Shown here piece by piece: positions 7,713 through 63,448 of a stretch of DNA of 64,000 nt. Positions within the stretch are counted from its first letter, which is position 1, and the number at the start of each line of letters is the position of its first letter. Below the pieces are notes generated by a model that saw only the letters and a list, made by a program, of their open reading frames with translations, was not told the origin of the DNA and searched no databases. The position numbers were made by a program, and so were the translations under genes. Location of the stretch: positions 275 to 64,274 of the forward strand of contig JBGATS010000001.1 of assembly GCA_044229075.1 (NCBI GenBank), written 5' to 3'. The DNA comes from Minisyncoccia bacterium (GTDB lineage: Bacteria; Patescibacteriota; Minisyncoccia; Phycocordibacterales; UBA1006).

Positions 7713-8813
7713 ATGCCTAAAAAAGTAACAAAACCAAAAAAAGAAAGTGGTGGTGATTTGGATGGAACATTAAAAATGATCCAGACGAAATTCGGTGAGG
7801 GTGCAATTATGAAATTAGGAGACGCCCCAAAGGTTGATATCGGAGTGGTGCCAACTGGGTCAATCGGGTTAGACGCAGCGCTGGGTATCGGAGGTCTTCC
7901 TCGTGGACGTGTTATCGAAATTTTTGGACCGGAATCATCTGGTAAAACAACATTAACACTCCATGTGATTGCAGAAGCACAAAAAAACGGTGGTATTTGT
8001 GCATTCATCGATGCAGAACACGCACTGGATCCAGAATATGCGAAAAAACTTGGTGTGAATATTAACGAATTACTCATTTCACAACCAGATACGGGTGAAC
8101 AAGCACTCGAAATTTGTGAAGCATTGGTTCGTTCTGGAAAAATCGATGTGGTGGTAGTAGACTCGGTAGCGGCACTCACCCCAAAAGATGAAATCGAGGG
8201 TGATATGGGTGCGCACCATGTGGGAAAACAGGCGCGATTAATGTCTCAAGCTCTCCGCAAATTAACTGCGATTTCAAGTAAAAGTAAAACGGCGATTATC
8301 TTTATCAACCAGATCCGTATGCAGATCGGCGTGATGTTTGGGAACCCAGAAACCACCCCAGGTGGAAAAGCGTTGAAATTCTATTCGTCAGTACGATTGG
8401 ATATCCGAAAAACTGCGCAGATCAAAAAAGGAGAAGATGTCGTCGGTGCACGAACAAAAGTAAAAGTAGTGAAAAACAAAGTTGCCGCACCGTTCAAAGT
8501 AACCGAATTCGATATTATCTATAACGAGGGAATTTCCATGGAAGGCGAGATGCTCGCACTCGGTGAAAAATTTGGCATCATTGGAAAATCGGGAGCAAGC
8601 TTCAGTTATATGGAAAAAGGTAAAGATGGCAAAGAAGAGAAAATATCTCTTGGTCGAGGATATGACGCAACGCGTCAGTTCCTCCGAACAAAAGAAGGAA
8701 AACAAATTCGTGATAAAATCTTGAAAGAAATTACTACACGAATCAAAAATGATGGATTATCGTTTACTGCATCTCCATCTGAATCTGATGAAGGAGCCGA
8801 GTCTGAAGAATAA
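7713..8813 (+). CDS. recA: recombinase RecA
   Basis: [20 protein letters not shown] Walker A and [18 protein letters not shown] match RecA; start placed at the MPKK ATG (7713) rather than the upstream ORF-track ATG. Confidence 0.93.
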
Positions 8814-30733: not shown

Positions 30734-33700
30734 TTATTTCTTCTCTACTGTATTCCCTTCACTGTTCCAAATAATACTTTCTGCACCAACAGTCGTTAAT
30801 AACTCTTTTTGAAGTTCACTATTTGCAAACCATGCTGGTTCTGCAATTTCAAGATAAACGGTTACACGATCACTTGGCATCAGGTTTGCATCTTTTCGCA
30901 TATCCTGGATTGTGCGGACCATGTCACGCATATCGCCTTCGTTACGCAAATCATCGGTGATTTCTGTATCCAGTTCAACCGTTCCCTGTTCCAAAGAGTC
31001 TTTTACCAGAATTTCTTTTATATTCAACTCGTCTTTAATGATATCAAGATAATCATTTGGTAGGTTTAATTCTGAAACTGAGAGTTTTGAAAGGGGTTGG
31101 CGAACTTTAACGTTTGCTTTTTGTCGTGCTTCCAGTCCGAGTGTTACGATATCACGAACTGACTGCATATATGAGATTACATTTTTAAAATCATATTCTG
31201 CATCACGGCGATCAATCCACCATCCTAAATGTACTGACTCTGGGTCGCGTTGCCATTTCACCTTTTGCCAAATCTCTTCGGTAATGAAAGGTGTGAAAGG
31301 TGCCATTGTCAGAGATAGGTTTCTCAAAATTAACTGCGTTGTTCGTAATGCCTTTTTTCGATCCATTTCATCATTTGATTTAAACCGATCTCGCGATCGT
31401 CTAATATACCAAGTTGATAATTCATTGATAAAATCTCGAATTGCTCGTGCCGGCATTAATACATCGTATTCATCCAACCCTTGCGACACAGTTCTAGAAA
31501 GTATATCCAGCTGAGCAAGTATCCAAGTGTCTAATACATTGGTTGGATTAATATATGGATTATATTCATCTTCATCCAGACTTTCGTCTGTTTTATACAT
31601 CTCATAAAAACTCACCACATTCAACAATGGATTAAAGACTTTTTTCTTTACCTCATCCAATGACTTTTCATCAAAGTTTTTGGTTTCACCTGGCTGGTTT
31701 ACACTGTAGAACCAGAATCGTGCGACATCTGCGCCAAATTTTTCGAATACTTCCCATGGTGAGACAATATTCCCTTTTGATTTTGACATCTTTGTTCCGT
31801 CTGCCGCCATCAACAATCCTAAACAAATTACGTTTTTGTAGTTATTGGTCGGTTCATCGTTGAGCAAGTTTGCAATCGCGTGCATCGTATAAAACCATCC
31901 GCGTGTTTGGTCGACTCCTTCTGAAATGTAATCTGCTGGCAACGGCTTAAAATCTACCGGCTCGCCTAACTTGTGAGACTGTGCATACGCCATCGCTCCG
32001 GAATCGAACCATACATCCATGATTGCAGATGTGCGTGTTAATTTTTCACCATCAAGCTCGAGTTCAATCTGGTCGATATATGGTTTATGAAAATCAAGTT
32101 CGTAGTTTTCATTATGCGGAAGTGGTGTGAAATCAAGTTCGCGGATTTCTGCATTAATAAACGGATATTCTTTCGGAGGGTTTTTTAAAAGAGTTTCAAA
32201 AGTAAATCCTTCACTTGCAAGAACTAACGCACGAGCTGATGAATTATGACCAACAATTAAGATATTTTTACCTTGATATTTTAGATCTATTTCATGTAAA
32301 AACTCTCCGCATCGTTTAATTACATCCTGATATGATTCACCTCCTTCTGCTTTATAGGTATATCTATTTGGTGAAACATTTCGCATTTTCAAATATTCAT
32401 CAAGGTTTTTTTCTTGATATTCGTCTCCTACCTGCCATTCAATTATACGTGAATCGGTAATAATATTTTCTGGATTATATCCGATTGTCTCTGCAACAAT
32501 TTTTGCAGTTTCTTGAGTTCTTAAAATTGGAGACGCAATAATAATATCAACTTTGGTTGATTTTAATTGCTCTGCAGATTTTATTACCTGCTCTTTTCCT
32601 TCGTCGGTTAAATGATTATTTGGGTCACCTTTAAAATCCCAAACGTTTTTTATATTACTGTGTGCCTGACCATGTCGCATTAATAAATATTTATTCCCAG
32701 ATTTCTTTGAATATTTTTTAATATCATCAATCGAGCCAACCACGACACGTTTTGATCCGTCTGCAGTTTCCCACACCGGAATTGGTGTTCCCCAGTATCG
32801 TTCACGTGAAATTGCCCAATCCTTGATTCCGTCGAGCCATTCACCAAAACGTCCTTCCTTTATATGATCTGGTTCCCAGTTGATATTTTCATTTGCCTTT
32901 AAGAGTTTTTCTCGTAATGAAGACATTCGGAAATACCATGAACCACGTGCGTAATACAATAATGGAGTGTTGCATCGCCAACAATGCGGATAACTGTGCG
33001 CGTAGTTTTCTTTTTTGAATAACAAATTGCGTGCTGTCAGATCATTAATGATATCAATCGCAAGTGTTGGTTTTCCTGATTCATCAGATTCTTTTACATA
33101 GCGACCTGATAGTTTAATCGTGTCAGTATCACAACCATTAACATACTTTCCTTCCTCGTTCACAACGTGGAATTTTGGAAGATTATGTTTTGTTCCAAGC
33201 TCAAAGTCATCAGCTCCATACATGGGTGCAATATGCACAATTCCTGTTCCATCCGTTGTTGTTACAAAATCTGCTGCATACACCTGGAATGCATTTTCAA
33301 GTTTTGATTTCTGATCTGCTGGAAGCAAATCTGACAGAAATGGATAGAGTGGTTCGTATTTGAGACCAACAAGATCTGAGCCTTTCCGAGAAGGATAACT
33401 TATTGTTGTGCCAGATGCTCGTGCGTAAGTTAAATATGTTCCTATCTCATTAAAAAGAGAGTGTTTATTATCTCGAGATGCTTCAAAAATGTCTTCTGAG
33501 ATTAGAAGGGTTACGCCATTATAGTTCCATTGTTTATATTTAACATCTGCCCCAACAGCAAGCGCAACATTCCCTGGAAGTGTCCACGGTGTCGTCGTCC
33601 ACGCCATGATATATGTATTGTCATCCACCACAAAGTCACCAATTTTCTGATCTTTTTCAACTTTAAACTTCACATACGCCGTTACATCCTTTATATCCTG

Positions 33701-34348
33701 ATACGCGCCTGGTTGGTTCAATTCATGACTCGATAAAGCAGTTCCACATCGCGGACACCACGGCAGAATCTTAAAATCTTTGTACATTAAATCATTCCCT
33801 GCTGCATCCTTTCGTTCAGAAATTTTCTTTGCCACACCCCACAATGCCTCGATATAACTGTTTTCATACGTCACATACGGATTCTGCATATCGAGCCAAT
33901 AACCCATACGGTCGGTCAATGCTTCCCATTCGTGTTTATATTCCCAAACACTTTCTTTACATTTTTTGTTGTATGCAGCCACGCCATAGACTTCGATTTC
34001 CTTTTTTGATTTTAATCCAAGCGCTTTTTCAACTTGTAATTCTACTGGCAATCCGTGTGTATCCCAACCAGCCTTTCGTTTTACGTTAAAGCCGCGCATT
34101 GTTTTGTAACGCGGAATGATATCCTTGAATGATCGTGCGCCGACATGGTGAATTCCAGGGCGACCGTTTGCGGTTGGTGGACCTTCGAAAAATATGAAGT
34201 CACCTTGTGTTGATTCTTTTGCAAGGGTTTTTTCAAAAATCTGATTGTCTTTCCAGAACTGCAAAATAGCCTCTTCGCAAGCTGCAGTTTCAGATTTTTC
34301 CAGATTCTCTGGGATAAAGTTTTTTGGGTTTGGGTTCATAGTTGACAA
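30734..34348 (-). CDS. ileS: isoleucyl-tRNA synthetase with an internal histidine-phosphatase (PGAM/RHG-type) domain insertion
   Basis: HIGH-region PTANGRPGIHHV, WTTTPWTLPGNVALAV, KMSKS all present. An extra ~230 aa lies between PIPVWE and MDVWFDSG and contains LLMRHGQAHSN...IIASPILRTQETA...LIVGHNSSARAL. TTG start at 34348; first ATG at 34339. Confidence 0.88.
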   Translation of the reverse strand: MSTMNPNPKNFIPENLEKSETAACEEAILQFWKDNQIFEKTLAKESTQGDFIFFEGPPTANGRPGIHHVGARSFKDIIPRYKTMRGFNVKRKAGWDTHGLPVELQVEKALGLKSKKEIEVYGVAAYNKKCKESVWEYKHEWEALTDRMGYWLDMQNPYVTYENSYIEALWGVAKKISERKDAAGNDLMYKDFKILPWCPRCGTALSSHELNQPGAYQDIKDVTAYVKFKVEKDQKIGDFVVDDNTYIMAWTTTPWTLPGNVALAVGADVKYKQWNYNGVTLLISEDIFEASRDNKHSLFNEIGTYLTYARASGTTISYPSRKGSDLVGLKYEPLYPFLSDLLPADQKSKLENAFQVYAADFVTTTDGTGIVHIAPMYGADDFELGTKHNLPKFHVVNEEGKYVNGCDTDTIKLSGRYVKESDESGKPTLAIDIINDLTARNLLFKKENYAHSYPHCWRCNTPLLYYARGSWYFRMSSLREKLLKANENINWEPDHIKEGRFGEWLDGIKDWAISRERYWGTPIPVWETADGSKRVVVGSIDDIKKYSKKSGNKYLLMRHGQAHSNIKNVWDFKGDPNNHLTDEGKEQVIKSAEQLKSTKVDIIIASPILRTQETAKIVAETIGYNPENIITDSRIIEWQVGDEYQEKNLDEYLKMRNVSPNRYTYKAEGGESYQDVIKRCGEFLHEIDLKYQGKNILIVGHNSSARALVLASEGFTFETLLKNPPKEYPFINAEIRELDFTPLPHNENYELDFHKPYIDQIELELDGEKLTRTSAIMDVWFDSGAMAYAQSHKLGEPVDFKPLPADYISEGVDQTRGWFYTMHAIANLLNDEPTNNYKNVICLGLLMAADGTKMSKSKGNIVSPWEVFEKFGADVARFWFYSVNQPGETKNFDEKSLDEVKKKVFNPLLNVVSFYEMYKTDESLDEDEYNPYINPTNVLDTWILAQLDILSRTVSQGLDEYDVLMPARAIRDFINELSTWYIRRSRDRFKSNDEMDRKKALRTTQLILRNLSLTMAPFTPFITEEIWQKVKWQRDPESVHLGWWIDRRDAEYDFKNVISYMQSVRDIVTLGLEARQKANVKVRQPLSKLSVSELNLPNDYLDIIKDELNIKEILVKDSLEQGTVELDTEITDDLRNEGDMRDMVRTIQDMRKDANLMPSDRVTVYLEIAEPAWFANSELQKELLTTVGAESIIWNSEGNTVEKK

Positions 34349-34402
34349 TTTTGGTAAATTATGGATAATAATGAGTAAATATTTTTAACAATTAAATTAA
34401 TG
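34315..34402. repeat. direct repeat A (~88 bp; ileS promoter/5' end) duplicated at 35621-35712
   Basis: near-identical stretches taaagttttttgggtttgggttcatagttgacaa...ttatggataataatgagtaaatattttt at both sites. Confidence 0.7.
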
Positions 34403-34408
34403 TAGATT

Positions 34409-34765
34409 ATGATTACAACTAAAGTATTAGAGGATGCGTGCAACGGTATAAACTTGGATATTTTTCTAGAAAAAATTCAGGGTAAAAAATTAAAATTATC
34501 AAATGATTACAGTATTGTACTAGAACGTTTCCAAAGTTTTGGTGGGACTAATGATGAAATACAAATTAAATCAAAAATTTTATTTGCTCAAGTAGGTATA
34601 ATTTTTGAAGAAAAATCACAACCTTCACTCAGAGCAATACATCGCATTACAAATGAAAAGGTTGTATTACAATTAAGAGATGTTCAGGAGAGATGTTTTT
34701 ATATTTGCAATTCAATGTATTTTGCTAAGTTAATTAAACAAAAAACTATACGATTAGTTAAATAA
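34409..34765 (+). CDS. hypothetical protein (118 aa) inside inserted module
   Basis: ORF with own hairpin terminator 34793-34819. Confidence 0.35.
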   Translation: MITTKVLEDACNGINLDIFLEKIQGKKLKLSNDYSIVLERFQSFGGTNDEIQIKSKILFAQVGIIFEEKSQPSLRAIHRITNEKVVLQLRDVQERCFYICNSMYFAKLIKQKTIRLVK

Positions 34766-34792
34766 ACAAAAAACTCTTCATTACGCACAATT

Positions 34793-34819
34793 AAAGTATT
34801 CCTACGGGAATGCTTTTTT
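34793..34819 (+). terminator. rho-independent terminator (agtattcc-tacg-ggaatgct + T5)
   Basis: seen in sequence. Confidence 0.5.
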
Positions 34820-35654
34820 ATTGTAATCGTTTATTACTAGTCTTGCTTCCTACTTGCTTTTTCATAATTTTTTTAATATCTGGCTCCGCGGGTAATTTTT
34901 CTGGAATAATACCTCGTGACAAGAGGGCTTTTCGAGTTGTTTGAGAATTCTCGAGAACTTCACGAACAAGTCTTTCTTTACCAGAAATATTTTTTGTTTT
35001 AATATTATGATCAGTCATGGCAAGTGCAAAATCCTTTGCACGAAGCTCCACATCGCTATCAAAATCTGCAAGTGGTCTATTGTTTGGGATTTTCTTTTTT
35101 GCTTTTAGTTGTCGTGTTGTTAATCCACCATACAGCGCCTGTATGTGTTTATCTTTGAATCCTGCAAAATCTACTGATGTATTAATTCCTCGAGTATATA
35201 CCGTACCTCTAATATTCTTTTCTGTATCGGCAAGTTTTTTTCGTGAAGCAATTCTCTTATGCTCATATTCTGCAATTTGTAGCAATTCTTGTTTACGTGT
35301 TTGGGTGGCAAAATACATTTGTGCTTCAGCGATTTCAGGTTTTCGTGGATCGCCGTTTTGAGCAATAAGGTAACATGCGTAACGTGTTAAAAGAATATCA
35401 TCAACGGGACGCTTTGCTTTTGAACCTATGGCGACCATTTTGTCGGCGCCGACAAAATGGTCCGCACTATTTATATTTTGTGTGTCACAAGAATTCTTTG
35501 CACGAATAATTGCATCAGAAAATTTTCTCCATTCCTTATAACCAAGTAATGGGTGGAGTTCACGTGCAGACCAATACTCAAAATTATCTATTGTTTTTTT
35601 AATAGATTCCAGATGGTGTATAAAGTTTTTTGGGTTTGGGTTCATAGTTGACAA
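34818..35654 (-). CDS. DinD-like (DNA-damage-inducible protein D family) protein carrying a duplicated IleRS N-terminus
   Basis: EYWSARELHPLLGYKEWRKF resembles the DinD family's conserved N-terminal region (recalled from memory, not searched). The first 12 codons, MSTMNPNPKNFI, are identical to those of ileS. Confidence 0.5.
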   Translation of the reverse strand: MSTMNPNPKNFIHHLESIKKTIDNFEYWSARELHPLLGYKEWRKFSDAIIRAKNSCDTQNINSADHFVGADKMVAIGSKAKRPVDDILLTRYACYLIAQNGDPRKPEIAEAQMYFATQTRKQELLQIAEYEHKRIASRKKLADTEKNIRGTVYTRGINTSVDFAGFKDKHIQALYGGLTTRQLKAKKKIPNNRPLADFDSDVELRAKDFALAMTDHNIKTKNISGKERLVREVLENSQTTRKALLSRGIIPEKLPAEPDIKKIMKKQVGSKTSNKRLQ

Positions 35655-35712
35655 CTTGGATTAATTATGGATAATAATGAGTAAATATTTTTTAAATCTT
35701 TAAATTAAAAAT
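35621..35712. repeat. direct repeat B (copy of ileS promoter/5' end)
   Basis: see repeat A. Confidence 0.7.
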
Positions 35713-35713
35713 T

Positions 35714-35905
35714 ATGGGAATAAAAACGTTATTGTGGATTATTATTGCAATTCTTTGGATAGGAATTGGAGCAATAATATTAAAGGTTGAAATCGAAAGT
35801 GAAACCTTGGAATGTTTAATAAGAAACAAACCGCGACCTAAATCTATGCTGATTTCAAGACTAACAGCTATATTAATGTGGCCAATTGCACCTTTTCTAT
35901 CGTAG
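35714..35905 (+). CDS. hypothetical small membrane protein (63 aa)
   Basis: two hydrophobic helices. Confidence 0.3.
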   Translation: MGIKTLLWIIIAILWIGIGAIILKVEIESETLECLIRNKPRPKSMLISRLTAILMWPIAPFLS

Positions 35906-36050
35906 AACTTTAACTAACAAAAAACTCGTCTTCGCTCACGACTAAAAGTCATGTGCAAGGACGAGTTTTTCTTATCCGAACATTTGTAAAATGTTTTAGG
36001 ACAAAAATTCGTGGTACCACCTTGGTTTATTATACTCCTCCGTCCTTTGG

Positions 36051-36223
36051 ACACCCCCTCTACAAGAGGAGGAAGTTGCAGACATTGGTTCGATGACTCC
36101 TCTTGTAGAGAAGCTCCGCAAAGCAGTGAAGAGTATAACCTTGTTACAGCTATTACGGGCATACCCGTTGGGGTCTAGTTTCTGGGGCCGGGAAAAATGC
36201 GAAGCATTTTTCCCGGCCTTTTG
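36051..36223 (+). promoter_or_regulatory. structured GC-rich leader: 14-bp perfect stem (ctctacaagaggag/ctcctcttgtagag, 25-nt loop), small hairpin, then strong terminator ggccgggaaaaatgc-gaa-gcatttttcccggcc + T4 (36186-36223)
   Basis: seen directly; upstream of small membrane protein gene 36354-36590; attenuator/riboswitch-like arrangement. Confidence 0.4.
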
Positions 36224-36353
36224 ATTTCTTCCCAAGGCTCTGGAATGATGAGTTCCGTCTTCGCCATATACCATCATAGTATCATACCTCGTTATCCAGT
36301 GCAACGATTATCGAAAACTTTTCTTTTTATCAAAATACGTTATACTGTATCCG

Positions 36354-41930: not shown

Positions 41931-42104
41931 GACCTAACCCCTAGAAGTCATTTTAGGATATGGTCGCAAATCCAATCACGAATAAAGAACTCCTCGTCAG
42001 AGTTCCGTGATTGGTCGTGCAAGGAAACTTGTGCGGAGCCTATGGCTCGCTTCTGATGGGGAGCTTTTTGTTACCCAAATGAAGTTTAAATCCAATCACA
42101 TTTT
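41931..42104 (+). promoter_or_regulatory. conserved structured 5' leader, copy A (paralogous to 63250-63448)
   Basis: Shared gacctaacccc...tatggYgcaaatcc-X-aaaaa(c)ctcctcgtc.g.agt.c-X'-gg...ggaaac...ggggag...aaaYcc-X-ttttATGAAT. Segment X covaries between copies (aatcacg here, gctaaagtg in copy B). Confidence 0.5.
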
Positions 42105-63249: not shown

Positions 63250-63448
63250 GACCTAACCCCTAAAAAACCTTGTTTTCTAGGGTATGGCGCAAATCCGCTA
63301 AAGTGTAAAAACCTCCTCGTCTGGAGTCACTTTAGTGGTCATGTCTGGAAACGGATATGGGTAGAGTAATCTACCATAACAGGCGGGGAGATTTTTGCTA
63401 TCTCCGATCTGTTTTTATCATAAAGCAAAACAAAACCGCTAAAGTTTT
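63250..63448 (+). promoter_or_regulatory. conserved structured 5' leader, copy B (paralogous to 41931-42104)
   Basis: see copy A; includes hairpin ggagat-ttttgct-atctcc followed by T-rich run; preceded by TATAAT at 63221. Confidence 0.5.

What the first reader, a model, noticed from the sequence alone, without database searches (positions are those of the whole stretch)
34315..35712. 1.3-kb dinD-like module inserted at the ileS 5' end, flanked by ~88-bp duplication that copies the ileS promoter and first 12 codons
The ~88-bp stretch taaagttttttgggtttgggttcatagttgacaa...ttatggataataatgagtaaatattttt at 34315-34402 recurs ~90% identical at 35621-35712. As a result the DinD-like gene (34818-35654) starts with the same MSTMNPNPKNFI as IleRS and sits behind a copy of the ileS promoter. 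The intervening segment also carries an opposite-strand 118-aa ORF with its own terminator. This looks like a recent insertion or duplicative capture that places a DNA-damage-inducible-type gene under a housekeeping promoter and N-terminal tag.
Basis: seen in the sequence. Interest (0 to 1): 0.58.

Follow-up and report, generated by a model that had tools for sequence, protein, structure and literature searches.

The report
Old dinD gene borrowing ileS start
A DNA-damage-type gene (dinD) sits between an isoleucine-sensing RNA switch and the isoleucyl-tRNA synthetase gene, and begins with a copy of that gene's first nine codons; relatives show this is an old arrangement kept uniform by recombination, not a fresh insertion, so it is a neat but fairly ordinary gene-fusion case.

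Summary
The repeat is real. Window 34314-34386 and 35620-35692 match at 69/73 nt, and gapped homology runs on to the ATGs of two divergent small ORFs. The 275-aa gene is a true DinD-family member, and its only usable start codon lies inside the repeat.

The "recent insertion behind the ileS promoter" reading is only partly right.
- Empty sites exist, in L144, L139 and L007-L010.
- The same chimeric dinD (MNPNP[KQ]NFI start) sits next to ileS in at least seven diverged lineages. Synonymous sites are saturated between the deepest of them, and dN/dS is about 0.09. The fusion is therefore old.
- In the sister lineage L001 the two copies are only 78% alike. The window's dinD-side copy resembles ileS-side copies, so its 95% identity reflects recent gene conversion or allele replacement.
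- The only strong promoter in the repeat (TTGACA-16-GATAAT) points away from ileS and dinD, toward the small ORFs. It is present only in loci that have such an ORF.

Upstream lies an Ile-specific T-box-like leader with a terminator. dinD is wedged between this leader and ileS, so it is probably co-controlled with ileS.

Side observations: a covarying 30-bp palindrome inside dinD, a transcriptional T-box with an ultrashort stem I, and a His_Phos domain inserted in IleRS.

The parts
30734..34339 (-). ileS (isoleucyl-tRNA synthetase). The conserved start is ATG 34339, giving a 1201-aa protein. An in-frame TTG at 34348 gives the 1204-aa ORF. The N-terminus is MNPNPKNFIPENLE.
   Evidence: ORF list. 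Pfam tRNA-synt_1, Anticodon_1 and DUF5915. The MNPNP start is shared by IleRS of relatives both with and without dinD.
34314..34411 (.). Repeat copy A, on the ileS side. It holds ileS codons 1-9 and the whole divergent intergenic region up to the ATG of ORF118.
34342..34369 (+). Sigma-70-type promoter-like site TTGACA-16-GATAAT (11/12 match) pointing toward ORF118. Its -35 box lies 3 nt from the ileS ATG.
   Evidence: Promoter scan. Both hexamers are unchanged in the five closest element copies while the spacer varies. TTGACA-16-[G/A/T]ATAAT is present in every locus that has a divergent ORF and absent in loci without one.
34409..34765 (+). ORF118, an orphan 118-aa gene divergent from ileS.
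   Evidence: No Pfam, NCBIfam, PADLOC or PHROG hit. One homologue exists (P0122, 64% identity). In L139 it occupies the same slot between the T-box terminator and ileS, and L139 has no dinD.
34758..34795 (.). Decayed copy of the 3' half of the T-box terminator. It is the second direct repeat and pairs with 35909-35946.
   Evidence: Family D2, 74% identity. The equivalent pair in L001 is 84% identical. It is orthologous to the real T-box terminator of L139.
34793..34816 (.). Hairpin between the convergent ORF118 and dinD genes. It is a good intrinsic terminator on the + strand and a weak one in the dinD direction.
   Evidence: Terminator scan. Folding gives z = -3.9 on the + strand and z = -1.4 on the minus strand, with no U-tract on the minus strand.
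34818..35645 (-). dinD homologue, 275 aa from ATG 35645. Residues 1-9 (MNPNPKNFI) come from the repeat. DinD-family homology starts at residue 11.
   Evidence: Pfam Bro-N. NCBIfam NF008573 at 294 bits, aligned over residues 11-267. PADLOC PDC-S13 at 314 bits. dN/dS is about 0.09. The next in-frame start codon is codon 73.
35433..35462 (.). Perfect 30-bp palindrome inside dinD: GACCATTTTGTCGGC|GCCGACAAAATGGTC. It is family-wide, covaries, and has no known function.
35620..35716 (.). Repeat copy B, on the dinD side. It holds dinD codons 1-9 and the intergenic region up to the ATG of ORF63.
   Evidence: Window 35621-35969, which includes it, is 96.3% identical to the single block of the empty-site relative L144.
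35648..35675 (+). Second copy of the outward promoter-like site TTGACA-16-GATAAT, pointing toward ORF63.
35714..35905 (+). ORF63, a small predicted membrane protein divergent from dinD.
   Evidence: One homologue exists (P0124, 94% identity). In L144 it lies directly between the T-box terminator and ileS, with no dinD.
35920..35970 (-). T-box terminator hairpin, followed by a U6 tract.
   Evidence: Inverted repeat I3. Fold energy is -28.3 kcal/mol with z = -4.5. CUCGUCCUU can pair either with the T-box motif to form the antiterminator or with GACGAG to form the terminator; this was read from the sequences.
35994..36270 (-). T-box-like leader. Stem I is at 36242-36256, with AUC at 36247-36249 in its terminal loop. 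The T-box motif AAGGUGGUACCACG is at 36010-36023.
   Evidence: Rfam RF00230 covers the full model but scores 26 bits (E = 0.003), below the gathering score of 93. Eleven relatives carry the motif. Stem I covaries, with 0 of 500 shuffles reaching the observed score.

Best explanation
In this Patescibacteria (candidate phyla radiation, CPR) lineage, ileS is preceded by an Ile-specific T-box leader that ends in an intrinsic terminator.

Long ago a dinD gene became lodged between that leader and ileS. It lost its own first ~11 codons and took over a duplicated copy of the ileS start, meaning the ATG plus about 9 codons. The likely join is at an AATCTGGAA (Asn-Leu-Glu) microhomology. The chimeric gene is kept under purifying selection in many descendant lineages. 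In some it overlaps ileS in an operon (ATGA stop/start overlap). In others, including this window, a divergent small ORF separates the two genes.

The window's layout is [S_B]-dinD body-[S_A]. Each S block runs from the 3' half of the T-box terminator, through a small reverse ORF and its outward sigma-70 promoter, to ileS-type codons 1-9.

The near-identity of the two promoter/start blocks is secondary. The dinD-side block was recently overwritten, either by gene conversion from the ileS side or by homologous replacement with an 'empty-site' allele like that of L144.

The same repeats allow loss of dinD by recombination, and possibly its regain. That would explain why close relatives differ in whether they carry it.

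Functionally, dinD and ileS share the same Shine-Dalgarno-less translation start. Both are probably transcribed by read-through from the T-box leader, so DinD would be made when tRNA-Ile is uncharged. E. coli DinD is a LexA-regulated modulator of RecA filaments.

Shown: the anatomy, family membership, conservation, empty sites, promoter orientation and T-box hallmarks.

Inferred: co-transcription, the direction of copying, the junction mechanism, the recombination history and the physiological role.
For: - Repeat and ORFs.
- DinD membership, with homology starting at residue 11.
- No alternative start before codon 73.
- The same dinD-ileS junction occurs in L001-L005 (95%), the contig carrying P0003 (83%), L006 (76%), L055 (72%), L058 (70%) and L057 (69%).
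- 80 more distant DinD loci never have ileS within 5 kb. They start MDKALxQIQQNLESIK, never NPNP.
- IleRS starts MNPNP in clade members with or without dinD.
- dN/dS is about 0.09. dS is 0.28 to L001 and above 2 to L006 and L055.
- The L001 copies are only 78% alike.
- The window's dinD-side block matches ileS-side blocks at 67/72. It matches its positional orthologue in L001 at only 55/72, although the dinD bodies are 91% identical.
- Empty sites: L007-L010, L139 with the ORF118 homologue, and L144 with ORF63. For L144, window 35621-35969 is 96.3% identical while the ileS 5' end is 91.4% identical (Fisher p = 0.004).
- Outward promoter. It is absent where there is no reverse ORF.
- T-box.
- In L057 and L058, dinD starts about 20-25 nt after the T-box terminator and overlaps ileS.
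- The hairpin after dinD is weak in the dinD direction.
- Only 6 of 44 long ORFs have an SD-like motif.
- DinD as a LexA-regulated gene and RecA-filament regulator: PMC6590174, and PMC4457935 citing Uranga et al. 2011.
Against: - There are no transcript data. Read-through from the T-box across two antisense ORFs and the 34793-34816 hairpin is assumed, and weak internal sense promoters cannot be excluded (one search lists a 9/12 site at 35738-35711).
- The T-box hit is far below Rfam's gathering score (26 vs 93 bits).
- The direction of copying (ileS to dinD) rests on parsimony. The 'NLE' shared at the junction is native to DinD, so some exchange in the opposite direction is possible.
- On the IleRS tree, dinD presence is patchy: present in the window, L001 and L006, absent in L007-L010. 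Several losses, or several gains by transfer, are required and the data do not distinguish them.
- The two S blocks carry unrelated ORFs, so a simple one-step duplication does not explain everything.
- L144 is a 1-kb contig, and the P0003 contig could not be read as DNA.
Confidence: 0.7

Rival explanations
1. This is a recent insertion or duplicative capture in this genome. A 1.3-kb dinD+ORF118 module landed at the ileS 5' end and created an ~90-bp duplication that supplies the ileS promoter and an N-terminal tag.
For: The blocks are 95% identical. Close and more distant relatives have empty sites.
Against: The same junction is present in lineages with saturated synonymous divergence. The sister lineage L001 has the same architecture with copies only 78% identical. 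The window's dinD-side block is ileS-type, unlike its orthologue in L001. The conserved promoter in the block faces away from dinD and ileS. ORF118 is not part of an incoming module, because it sits next to ileS in the dinD-less L139.
Confidence: 0.07
2. dinD is a horizontally moving, recombinase-free module. Its ileS-derived 5' end and the T-box-terminator remnant act as homology arms, so the module can enter or leave the ileS locus of related strains by homologous recombination. On this view the window lineage re-acquired it recently from a relative, into an L144-type empty allele.
For: The layout is S-X-S. The window's S_B region is 96.3% identical to the empty allele of L144, against 91.4% for the ileS 5' end. 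The dinD-side block is ileS-type. dinD presence is patchy on the IleRS tree. Reverse-ORF cassettes in the slot are unrelated between relatives. L055 has a replaced ileS body behind a conserved 5' end.
Against: DinD divergence tracks IleRS divergence. Window-L001 identity is 91% for dinD and 92% for the ileS 5' end. Window-L006 protein identity is 76% for DinD and 75% for IleRS. That fits vertical descent plus losses. No circular or extrachromosomal copy was found and there are no viral relatives. The homology arms are short, about 40-100 nt.
Confidence: 0.2
3. This is an assembly artefact: the duplication is a collapse, expansion or chimeric join in a metagenome-assembled contig.
For: The source is a metagenome-type contig. 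Repeats of about 100 nt can mislead assemblers.
Against: The copies differ at 4 of 73 positions, clustered in one spacer. The same dinD / small ORF / ileS architecture, with the same two repeats, was assembled independently in a JGI contig and in contigs from four different Logan runs (L001-L005), and also in L006. dinD is intact and under purifying selection.
Confidence: 0.02
4. The shared block is conserved only because it is the promoter, with its upstream region, of the small divergent ORFs. On this view the identical N-termini of IleRS and DinD are a by-product of that constraint, not of a duplication.
For: The 73-nt core spans about -62 to +10 of the outward promoter (coordinates). Its hexamers are invariant while the spacer drifts.
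Against: IleRS keeps the MNPNPKNF start, and dinD keeps MNPNPQNFI, in loci with no reverse ORF or outward promoter at all (L007, L008, L057). Other DinDs never have this start. Common descent of the two 5' ends is therefore still required.
Confidence: 0.08

Closest known systems
E. coli DinD (DNA damage-inducible protein D; NCBIfam NF008573; Bro-N domain PF02498)
   Same: It is homologous over its full length: 294 bits against a cutoff of 242, aligned over residues 11-267. The Bro-N domain matches. tblastn finds E. coli dinD at about 38% identity.
   Different: The first ~10 residues are replaced by an ileS-derived start. Here the gene lies downstream of a tRNA-Ile-sensing leader, whereas E. 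coli dinD is LexA-regulated (PMC6590174). No LexA site was looked for. Function in CPR bacteria is untested.
ileS T-box riboswitches, especially the 'ultrashort stem I' class of Actinobacteria (Sherwood et al. 2015, as reviewed in PMC7583486)
   Same: It has the T-box motif with the UGGUACC bulge and an AUC specifier followed by A. Stem I is reduced to a short hairpin lacking the distal tRNA-elbow platform. It lies upstream of ileS.
   Different: Here the expression platform is an intrinsic terminator/antiterminator, not Shine-Dalgarno sequestration. The host is a Patescibacteria lineage. The Rfam score is far below threshold. In several loci a dinD gene and antisense small ORFs lie between the leader and ileS.
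Chimeric genes made by duplicating a neighbour's 5' end (segmental duplication or gene fusion), followed by concerted evolution (gene conversion) of the duplicated segments
   Same: The promoter-proximal DNA, start codon and first codons are duplicated and fused to a foreign coding body. Within this genome the copies are more alike than positional orthologues in the sister lineage.
   Different: The donor is an essential aminoacyl-tRNA synthetase gene under riboswitch control. The duplicated block also carries an outward promoter for unrelated small ORFs. The arrangement persists in two architectures across a clade.
Campbell-type integrations and genomic islands flanked by attL/attR repeats that rebuild the end of the target gene
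   Same: The inserted DNA is flanked by direct repeats that include the end of a housekeeping gene. Relatives have empty sites. The repeats can mediate precise loss.
   Different: No integrase, transposase or inverted ends are present. The insert is only ~0.8-1.3 kb. The repeat is fused in frame to the cargo gene.

Membership tests
DinD (NCBIfam NF008573, equivalog) | Whole-protein score at or above the curated cutoff of 242 bits | tested here: met
   294.4 bits, E = 8.5e-88, residues 11-267 aligned to profile positions 12-276 of 288.
DinD (NCBIfam NF008573, equivalog) | N-terminal Bro-N DNA-binding domain (PF02498) above the gathering score | tested here: met
   36.7 bits against a cutoff of 25.6, residues 22-111.
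DinD (NCBIfam NF008573, equivalog) | DNA-damage (LexA) inducibility and RecA-filament modulation, as in E. coli | not testable with these tools
   Known only from the E. coli literature. No expression or biochemical data exist for this lineage.
T-box leader (Rfam RF00230) | Covariance-model score at or above the gathering score of 93 bits | tested here: not met
   26 bits, E = 0.0029, full model span 1-219, with stem I shortened from 75 nt to 6 nt.
T-box leader (Rfam RF00230) | Conserved T-box sequence with a 7-nt bulge (UGGNACC) inside an antiterminator that competes with a downstream intrinsic terminator | tested here: met
   AAGGUGGUACCACG is present in the window and 10 relatives. CUCGUCCUU can pair either with the T-box motif or with GACGAG followed by a U-run. 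The terminator folds at -28.3 kcal/mol, z = -4.5.
T-box leader (Rfam RF00230) | Specifier codon matching the regulated gene's amino acid, followed by a purine, presented by stem I | tested here: met
   AUC followed by A is invariant in the stem I loop of 9 sequences. The stem covaries (GGAA:UUCC, AGAG:CUCU, GGAG:CUCC, CCGG:CCGG), and 0 of 500 shuffles reach the observed score.
T-box leader (Rfam RF00230) | Long stem I with a distal platform (interdigitated T-loops) that binds the tRNA elbow, typical of transcriptional T-boxes | tested here: not met
   Stem I is a 3-4 bp hairpin with a 7-nt loop. The review states this platform is essential in transcriptional T-boxes (PMC7583486).
Transposable element or integrase-mediated island | A transposase or integrase gene, terminal inverted repeats, and a short target-site duplication | tested here: not met
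   The only ORFs between the repeats are dinD and ORF118, and neither has a recombinase domain. No terminal inverted repeats were found. The 73-98-nt repeat is far longer than a target-site duplication.
Type II toxin-antitoxin pair (dinD/ORF118) | Two small co-oriented genes in one operon with hits to TA families | tested here: not met
   The genes are convergent. ORF118 has no hit in Pfam, NCBIfam, PADLOC or PHROGs. ORF118 occurs without dinD in L139.
PADLOC candidate defence system PDC-S13 | Match to the PDC-S13 protein model | tested here: met
   PDLC04919 at 313.8 bits. This is a candidate system, and no defence-island context is visible. Neighbours are housekeeping genes and are syntenic in relatives.

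The most novel reading that the evidence does not exclude
The interval between the T-box terminator and the ileS start may be a recombinase-free 'landing pad'. Its conserved flanks are the terminator on one side and, on the other, the ileS start with an outward promoter. These flanks would let related strains swap small-gene cassettes, and the dinD module, by homologous recombination.

The dinD gene's ileS-derived 5' end would then serve as its homology arm, its translation start and its ticket to tRNA-Ile-dependent expression. That would couple amino-acid starvation to modulation of RecA.
Probability: 0.15. Interest if true: 0.6.

Novelty: new variant of a known kind. Interest (0 to 1): 0.4.

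Why it matters
- It is a clean natural example of how an accessory gene becomes wired into the control region of an essential gene. The gene copies the essential gene's start, and recombination between the copies then keeps them alike and makes the accessory gene easy to lose or regain.
- It places a RecA-modulator homologue downstream of a tRNA-Ile sensor in bacteria with tiny genomes. That suggests a link between starvation and DNA metabolism, which could be tested.
- The context gave three further leads. The first is a terminator-type T-box that lacks the tRNA-elbow platform thought to be essential for transcriptional T-boxes. The second is a covarying palindrome embedded in dinD genes across phyla. 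The third is a phosphatase domain inserted in IleRS.

Tried and rejected
- **Exact-protein lookup of the 278-aa TTG-start product** found nothing, because public gene calls use the ATG start (P0001).
- **Phage or mobile origin.** No relative was found in viral contigs, either by protein search or by a degenerate junction pattern. There is no recombinase or TA signature.
- **Metagenome scan with DinD** returned only homologues at 65% identity or less, none of them linked to ileS. These were useful as a control but gave no closer relatives.
- **Sense-strand promoter for ileS or dinD inside the repeat.** No conserved candidate was found. There is one 9/12 site at 35738-35711 in copy B only.
- **ORF118 and ORF63 function.** Both are orphans with one homologue each. 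The small ORFs occupying this slot in relatives are mutually unrelated.
- **LexA box as an explanation for the dinD palindrome.** This could not be checked. The Patescibacteria SOS paper is not held, and a later paper from the same group cites it among direct-repeat LexA motifs.
- **Strand test for the palindrome (RNA vs DNA)** from wobble-type mismatches was inconclusive.
- **Solved structures.** None exists for a DinD relative.
- **Literature searches** found no description of dinD-ileS linkage, of T-boxes in Patescibacteria, of an IleRS-phosphatase fusion, or of a dinD palindrome in the held library.


Full report
**1. The observation**

The minus strand carries ileS (30734-34348 as an ORF) and a 278-aa ORF (34818-35654). 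Both begin MSTMNPNPKNFI.

The repeat finder gives one 73-nt direct repeat, 34314-34386 and 35620-35692, at 95% identity. It is made of two exact blocks of 35 and 30 nt, separated by a diverged 8-nt stretch. A gapped alignment carries the similarity on to the ATGs of two plus-strand ORFs, ORF118 (34409) and ORF63 (35714). Both halves of the block occur exactly twice in the window, with none expected by chance.

The conserved start is the ATG (34339 and 35645), which gives MNPNPKNFI. Public gene calls use it (P0001). Several relatives have no in-frame TTG.

**2. What the genes are**

- **The 275-aa protein** is a full-length DinD. It scores 294 bits on NCBIfam NF008573 (cutoff 242), with the alignment starting at residue 11. 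It also matches Pfam Bro-N and PADLOC PDC-S13.
- **Its start** depends on the repeat. After the ATG inside the repeat, the next in-frame start is codon 73, inside the Bro-N domain.
- **ORF118 and ORF63** have no family hits. Each has only one homologue in 5.8 billion proteins.
- **IleRS** is a normal class I enzyme, apart from an inserted His_Phos_1 domain.

**3.

Upstream on the ileS strand there is a structured leader.

- Rfam's T-box model spans it end to end at 35994-36270, but scores only 26 bits (E = 0.003; gathering score 93).
- The hallmarks are nevertheless present:
  - The T-box sequence AAGGUGGUACCACG.
  - An antiterminator whose 3' strand CUCGUCCUU can instead pair with GACGAG to form a -28 kcal/mol terminator followed by U6.
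  - A short stem I whose terminal loop reads yUAAUCA or CUCAUCA, that is AUC (Ile) followed by A, in nine relatives. The stem changes by compensatory substitutions, and 0 of 500 shuffles reach the observed score.
- In relatives L007 and L008 the ileS ATG follows this terminator by about 25-40 nt. The leader is therefore the natural control region of ileS.

**4. Relatives**

*(a) The chimeric dinD is old and always next to ileS.*

- DinD proteins at 95, 83, 76, 72, 70 and 68% identity all start MN(P/Q)NP(K/Q)NFI or a decayed version of it.
- All lie immediately upstream of an IleRS gene that carries the His_Phos insert.
- Two architectures exist:
  - Split: dinD, a small reverse ORF, then ileS. 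This is seen in the window, L001-L005, L006 and the contig carrying P0003.
  - Operon: the dinD stop overlaps the ileS ATG. This is seen in L055, L057 and L058, and in L057 and L058 dinD starts 20-25 nt after the T-box terminator.
- Eighty DinD loci at 65% identity or less never have ileS within 5 kb. They start MDKALxQIQQNLESIK.
- dinD is under purifying selection, with dN/dS about 0.09. dS is 0.28 to L001 and above 2 to L006 and L055.

*(b) Empty sites exist.*

- L007-L010 are GTDB species representatives whose IleRS N-terminal region is 70-86% identical to the window's. They have no dinD, yet their IleRS starts MNPNP or MNSNP.
- L139 has the ORF118 homologue between the T-box terminator and ileS.
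- L144 is a close relative, with its ileS 5' end 91.4% identical. Its order is T-box terminator, ORF63, block, ileS, and this stretch matches window 35621-35969 at 96.3%.

*(c) Direction of copying.*

MNPNP is shared by all IleRS of the clade, with or without dinD. It is never found in unlinked DinDs. Copying from ileS to dinD is therefore the parsimonious direction.

The two genes share ATCTGGAA (…N/H-L-E) just past the repeat, and NLE is native to DinD. This suggests a join at that microhomology, but that is an inference.

**5. Why the copies are 95% identical**

- In L001 the same two blocks are only 78% alike.
- Over 72 aligned nt, the window's dinD-side block matches the window's ileS-side block at 67/72 and L001's ileS-side block at 67/72. 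It matches its positional orthologue, L001's dinD-side block, at only 55/72. The adjacent dinD bodies are 91% identical.
- Within-genome divergence of 5-7% is below the neutral divergence since the split from L001 (dS 0.28).
- The dinD-side block was therefore recently overwritten by an ileS-type block. This happened either by intragenomic conversion or by replacement with an L144-like allele.
- Allele replacement is favoured by one comparison. The S_B region is significantly closer to L144 than the ileS 5' end is: 13 differences in 351 nt against 41 in 477 nt (p = 0.004).
- Recombination between the two blocks would delete dinD and ORF118 and yield exactly the L144 arrangement.

**6. The 'promoter'**

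The only strong promoter-like site in the block is TTGACA-16-GATAAT on the plus strand. It occurs in both copies and points at ORF118 and ORF63.

Its hexamers are unchanged in the five closest element copies while the spacer drifts. The TTGACA-16-[G/A/T]ATAAT pattern holds in every locus with a reverse ORF. It is missing from the loci that lack a reverse ORF, although ileS or dinD is still there.

The block is therefore not needed as an ileS promoter.

The hairpin after dinD is a good terminator only for ORF118. Few genes in the window have a Shine-Dalgarno motif (6 of 44). By eye, many long ORFs have a TATACT-type -10 box a few nt before the ATG. ileS and dinD do not, which is consistent with their being internal to a longer transcript.

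**7. Architecture**

Reading in the ileS direction, the order is: T-box, then the terminator 5' half, then [S_B: terminator 3' half, ORF63, promoter block, codons 1-9], then the dinD body and hairpin, then [S_A: decayed terminator 3' half, ORF118, promoter block, codons 1-9], then the rest of ileS.

This S-X-S form is what duplication-insertion or Campbell-type recombination leaves behind. However, the two S blocks now hold unrelated ORFs, and relatives hold yet other ORFs in the same slot. The slot has evidently been reshuffled repeatedly.

**8. Verdict**

The feature is real. It is a new variant of a known kind of event: a chimeric gene made by duplicating a neighbour's 5' end, then maintained by gene conversion and subject to presence/absence polymorphism.

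It is not a recent insertion. It does not copy a demonstrated ileS promoter. It is not an assembly artefact, because independent assemblies share the same architecture.

The likely consequence is T-box-dependent co-expression of DinD with IleRS. That is an inference and needs transcript data.

**9. Side findings**

*(i) A 30-bp perfect palindrome inside dinD (35433-35462).*

- It is unique in the window.
- It is conserved at the same gene position in most of 74 distinct DinD loci.
- Arm positions 3-13 are Watson-Crick in 54-61 of 61 sequences. The covariation score is 0.165, against 0.032 ± 0.004 in shuffles.
- The compensatory changes alter amino acids, for example GTC/GAC, GCC/GGC, ACC/GGT and CGC/GCG.
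- In 22 loci the same palindrome is read in a different frame, giving HFLPAPAKS instead of HFVGADKMV, within a length-variable loop of the Bro-N domain.
- Weaker versions exist in Bernardetia, Zymomonas, Streptococcus and E. coli dinD.
- In L055 the internal site has decayed, but a copy lies 70 nt upstream of dinD.
- Selection here acts on the nucleic acid. The function is unknown.

*(ii) The T-box.* It combines an ultrashort stem I with a terminator. The review literature treats this combination as unexpected.

*(iii) The His_Phos_1 insertion in IleRS.* It is widespread in these lineages.

Noticed in passing
window 35433-35462 (inside dinD); also L001, L006, L057-L138 and L145-L148 at the homologous gene position; L055 about 2969-2998 (upstream of dinD): There is a perfect 30-bp palindrome, GACCATTTTGTCGGC|GCCGACAAAATGGTC, in the dinD coding region. 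It is conserved across DinD genes of many Patescibacteria, and in weaker form in Bacteroidota, Alphaproteobacteria, Streptococcus and E. coli. Compensatory changes alter amino acids, and one class of loci reads the same palindrome in a different frame. The covariation score is 0.165 vs 0.032 in shuffles. Selection is on the nucleic acid. Whether it is an operator, a hairpin or a recombination site is unknown. No description was found in the held literature.
   Followed up: partly
window 35920-36270 (minus strand); relatives L001, L006-L010, L013, L055, L139, L144: This is an Ile-specific T-box-like leader. Stem I is only a 3-4 bp hairpin that presents AUC+A in its terminal loop ('ultrashort', with no tRNA-elbow platform), yet it is paired with a classical antiterminator/terminator. 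Ultrashort stem I is described for translational T-boxes of Actinobacteria, and the platform is considered essential in transcriptional ones (PMC7583486). The Rfam score is only 26 bits (gathering score 93), so such leaders are missed by standard annotation.
   Followed up: partly
window 32183-32686 (aa 555-722 of the IleRS ORF, minus strand): A histidine-phosphatase domain (PF00300, His_Phos_1, E = 1e-30) is inserted in the middle of the IleRS catalytic domain. The same insertion is present in L001, L006, L007, L010, L012-L014, L055 and L139. It is absent in a Microgenomates IleRS (L017). No paper on it was found.
   Followed up: partly
L055 3876-7283: The L055 IleRS body is only about 42-45% identical to all other clade members, and has a eukaryote-like PPFATGLPHYGH motif. 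It nevertheless keeps the clade's N-terminus (MNPNLKSPNAENEEKVLQFW) and the dinD-ileS overlap. This suggests the ileS body was replaced by recombination just inside the 5' end.
   Followed up: no
window-wide gene starts, e.g. upstream of the ATGs at 7713, 11859, 17282 and 54839: Only 6 of 44 long ORFs have a Shine-Dalgarno-like motif. Many have a TGnTATACT-type -10 box ending about 6-9 nt before the ATG, which points to widespread leaderless mRNAs. ileS and dinD lack such a box.
   Followed up: no
window 41931-42048 and 63250-63375 (+): There are two copies of the LOOT RNA motif (RF03000, 73 and 76 bits), above the gathering score.
   Followed up: no
L001 about 1373-1465; L144 about 820-960: Palindrome-rich insertions (…GTCATTCCGGACTTGATCCGGAAT…, …GATCCTGATTTTCATCAGGATGAC…) sit inside the antiterminator loop of the T-box in L001 and L144. 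The window lacks them. They look like small mobile inverted-repeat elements tolerated within the riboswitch.
   Followed up: no
the slot between the T-box terminator and ileS/dinD in the window, L001, L006, L009, L010, L055, L139 and L144: This slot holds a different small reverse ORF in almost every relative: TM peptides of 43-70 aa, a 117-aa and a 118-aa protein with CxxCxGxG motifs, and the ORF118 family. They are mutually unrelated by BLASTP. In the loci examined, each is preceded by the same TTGACA-16-[G/A/T]ATAAT promoter-like site.
   Followed up: partly
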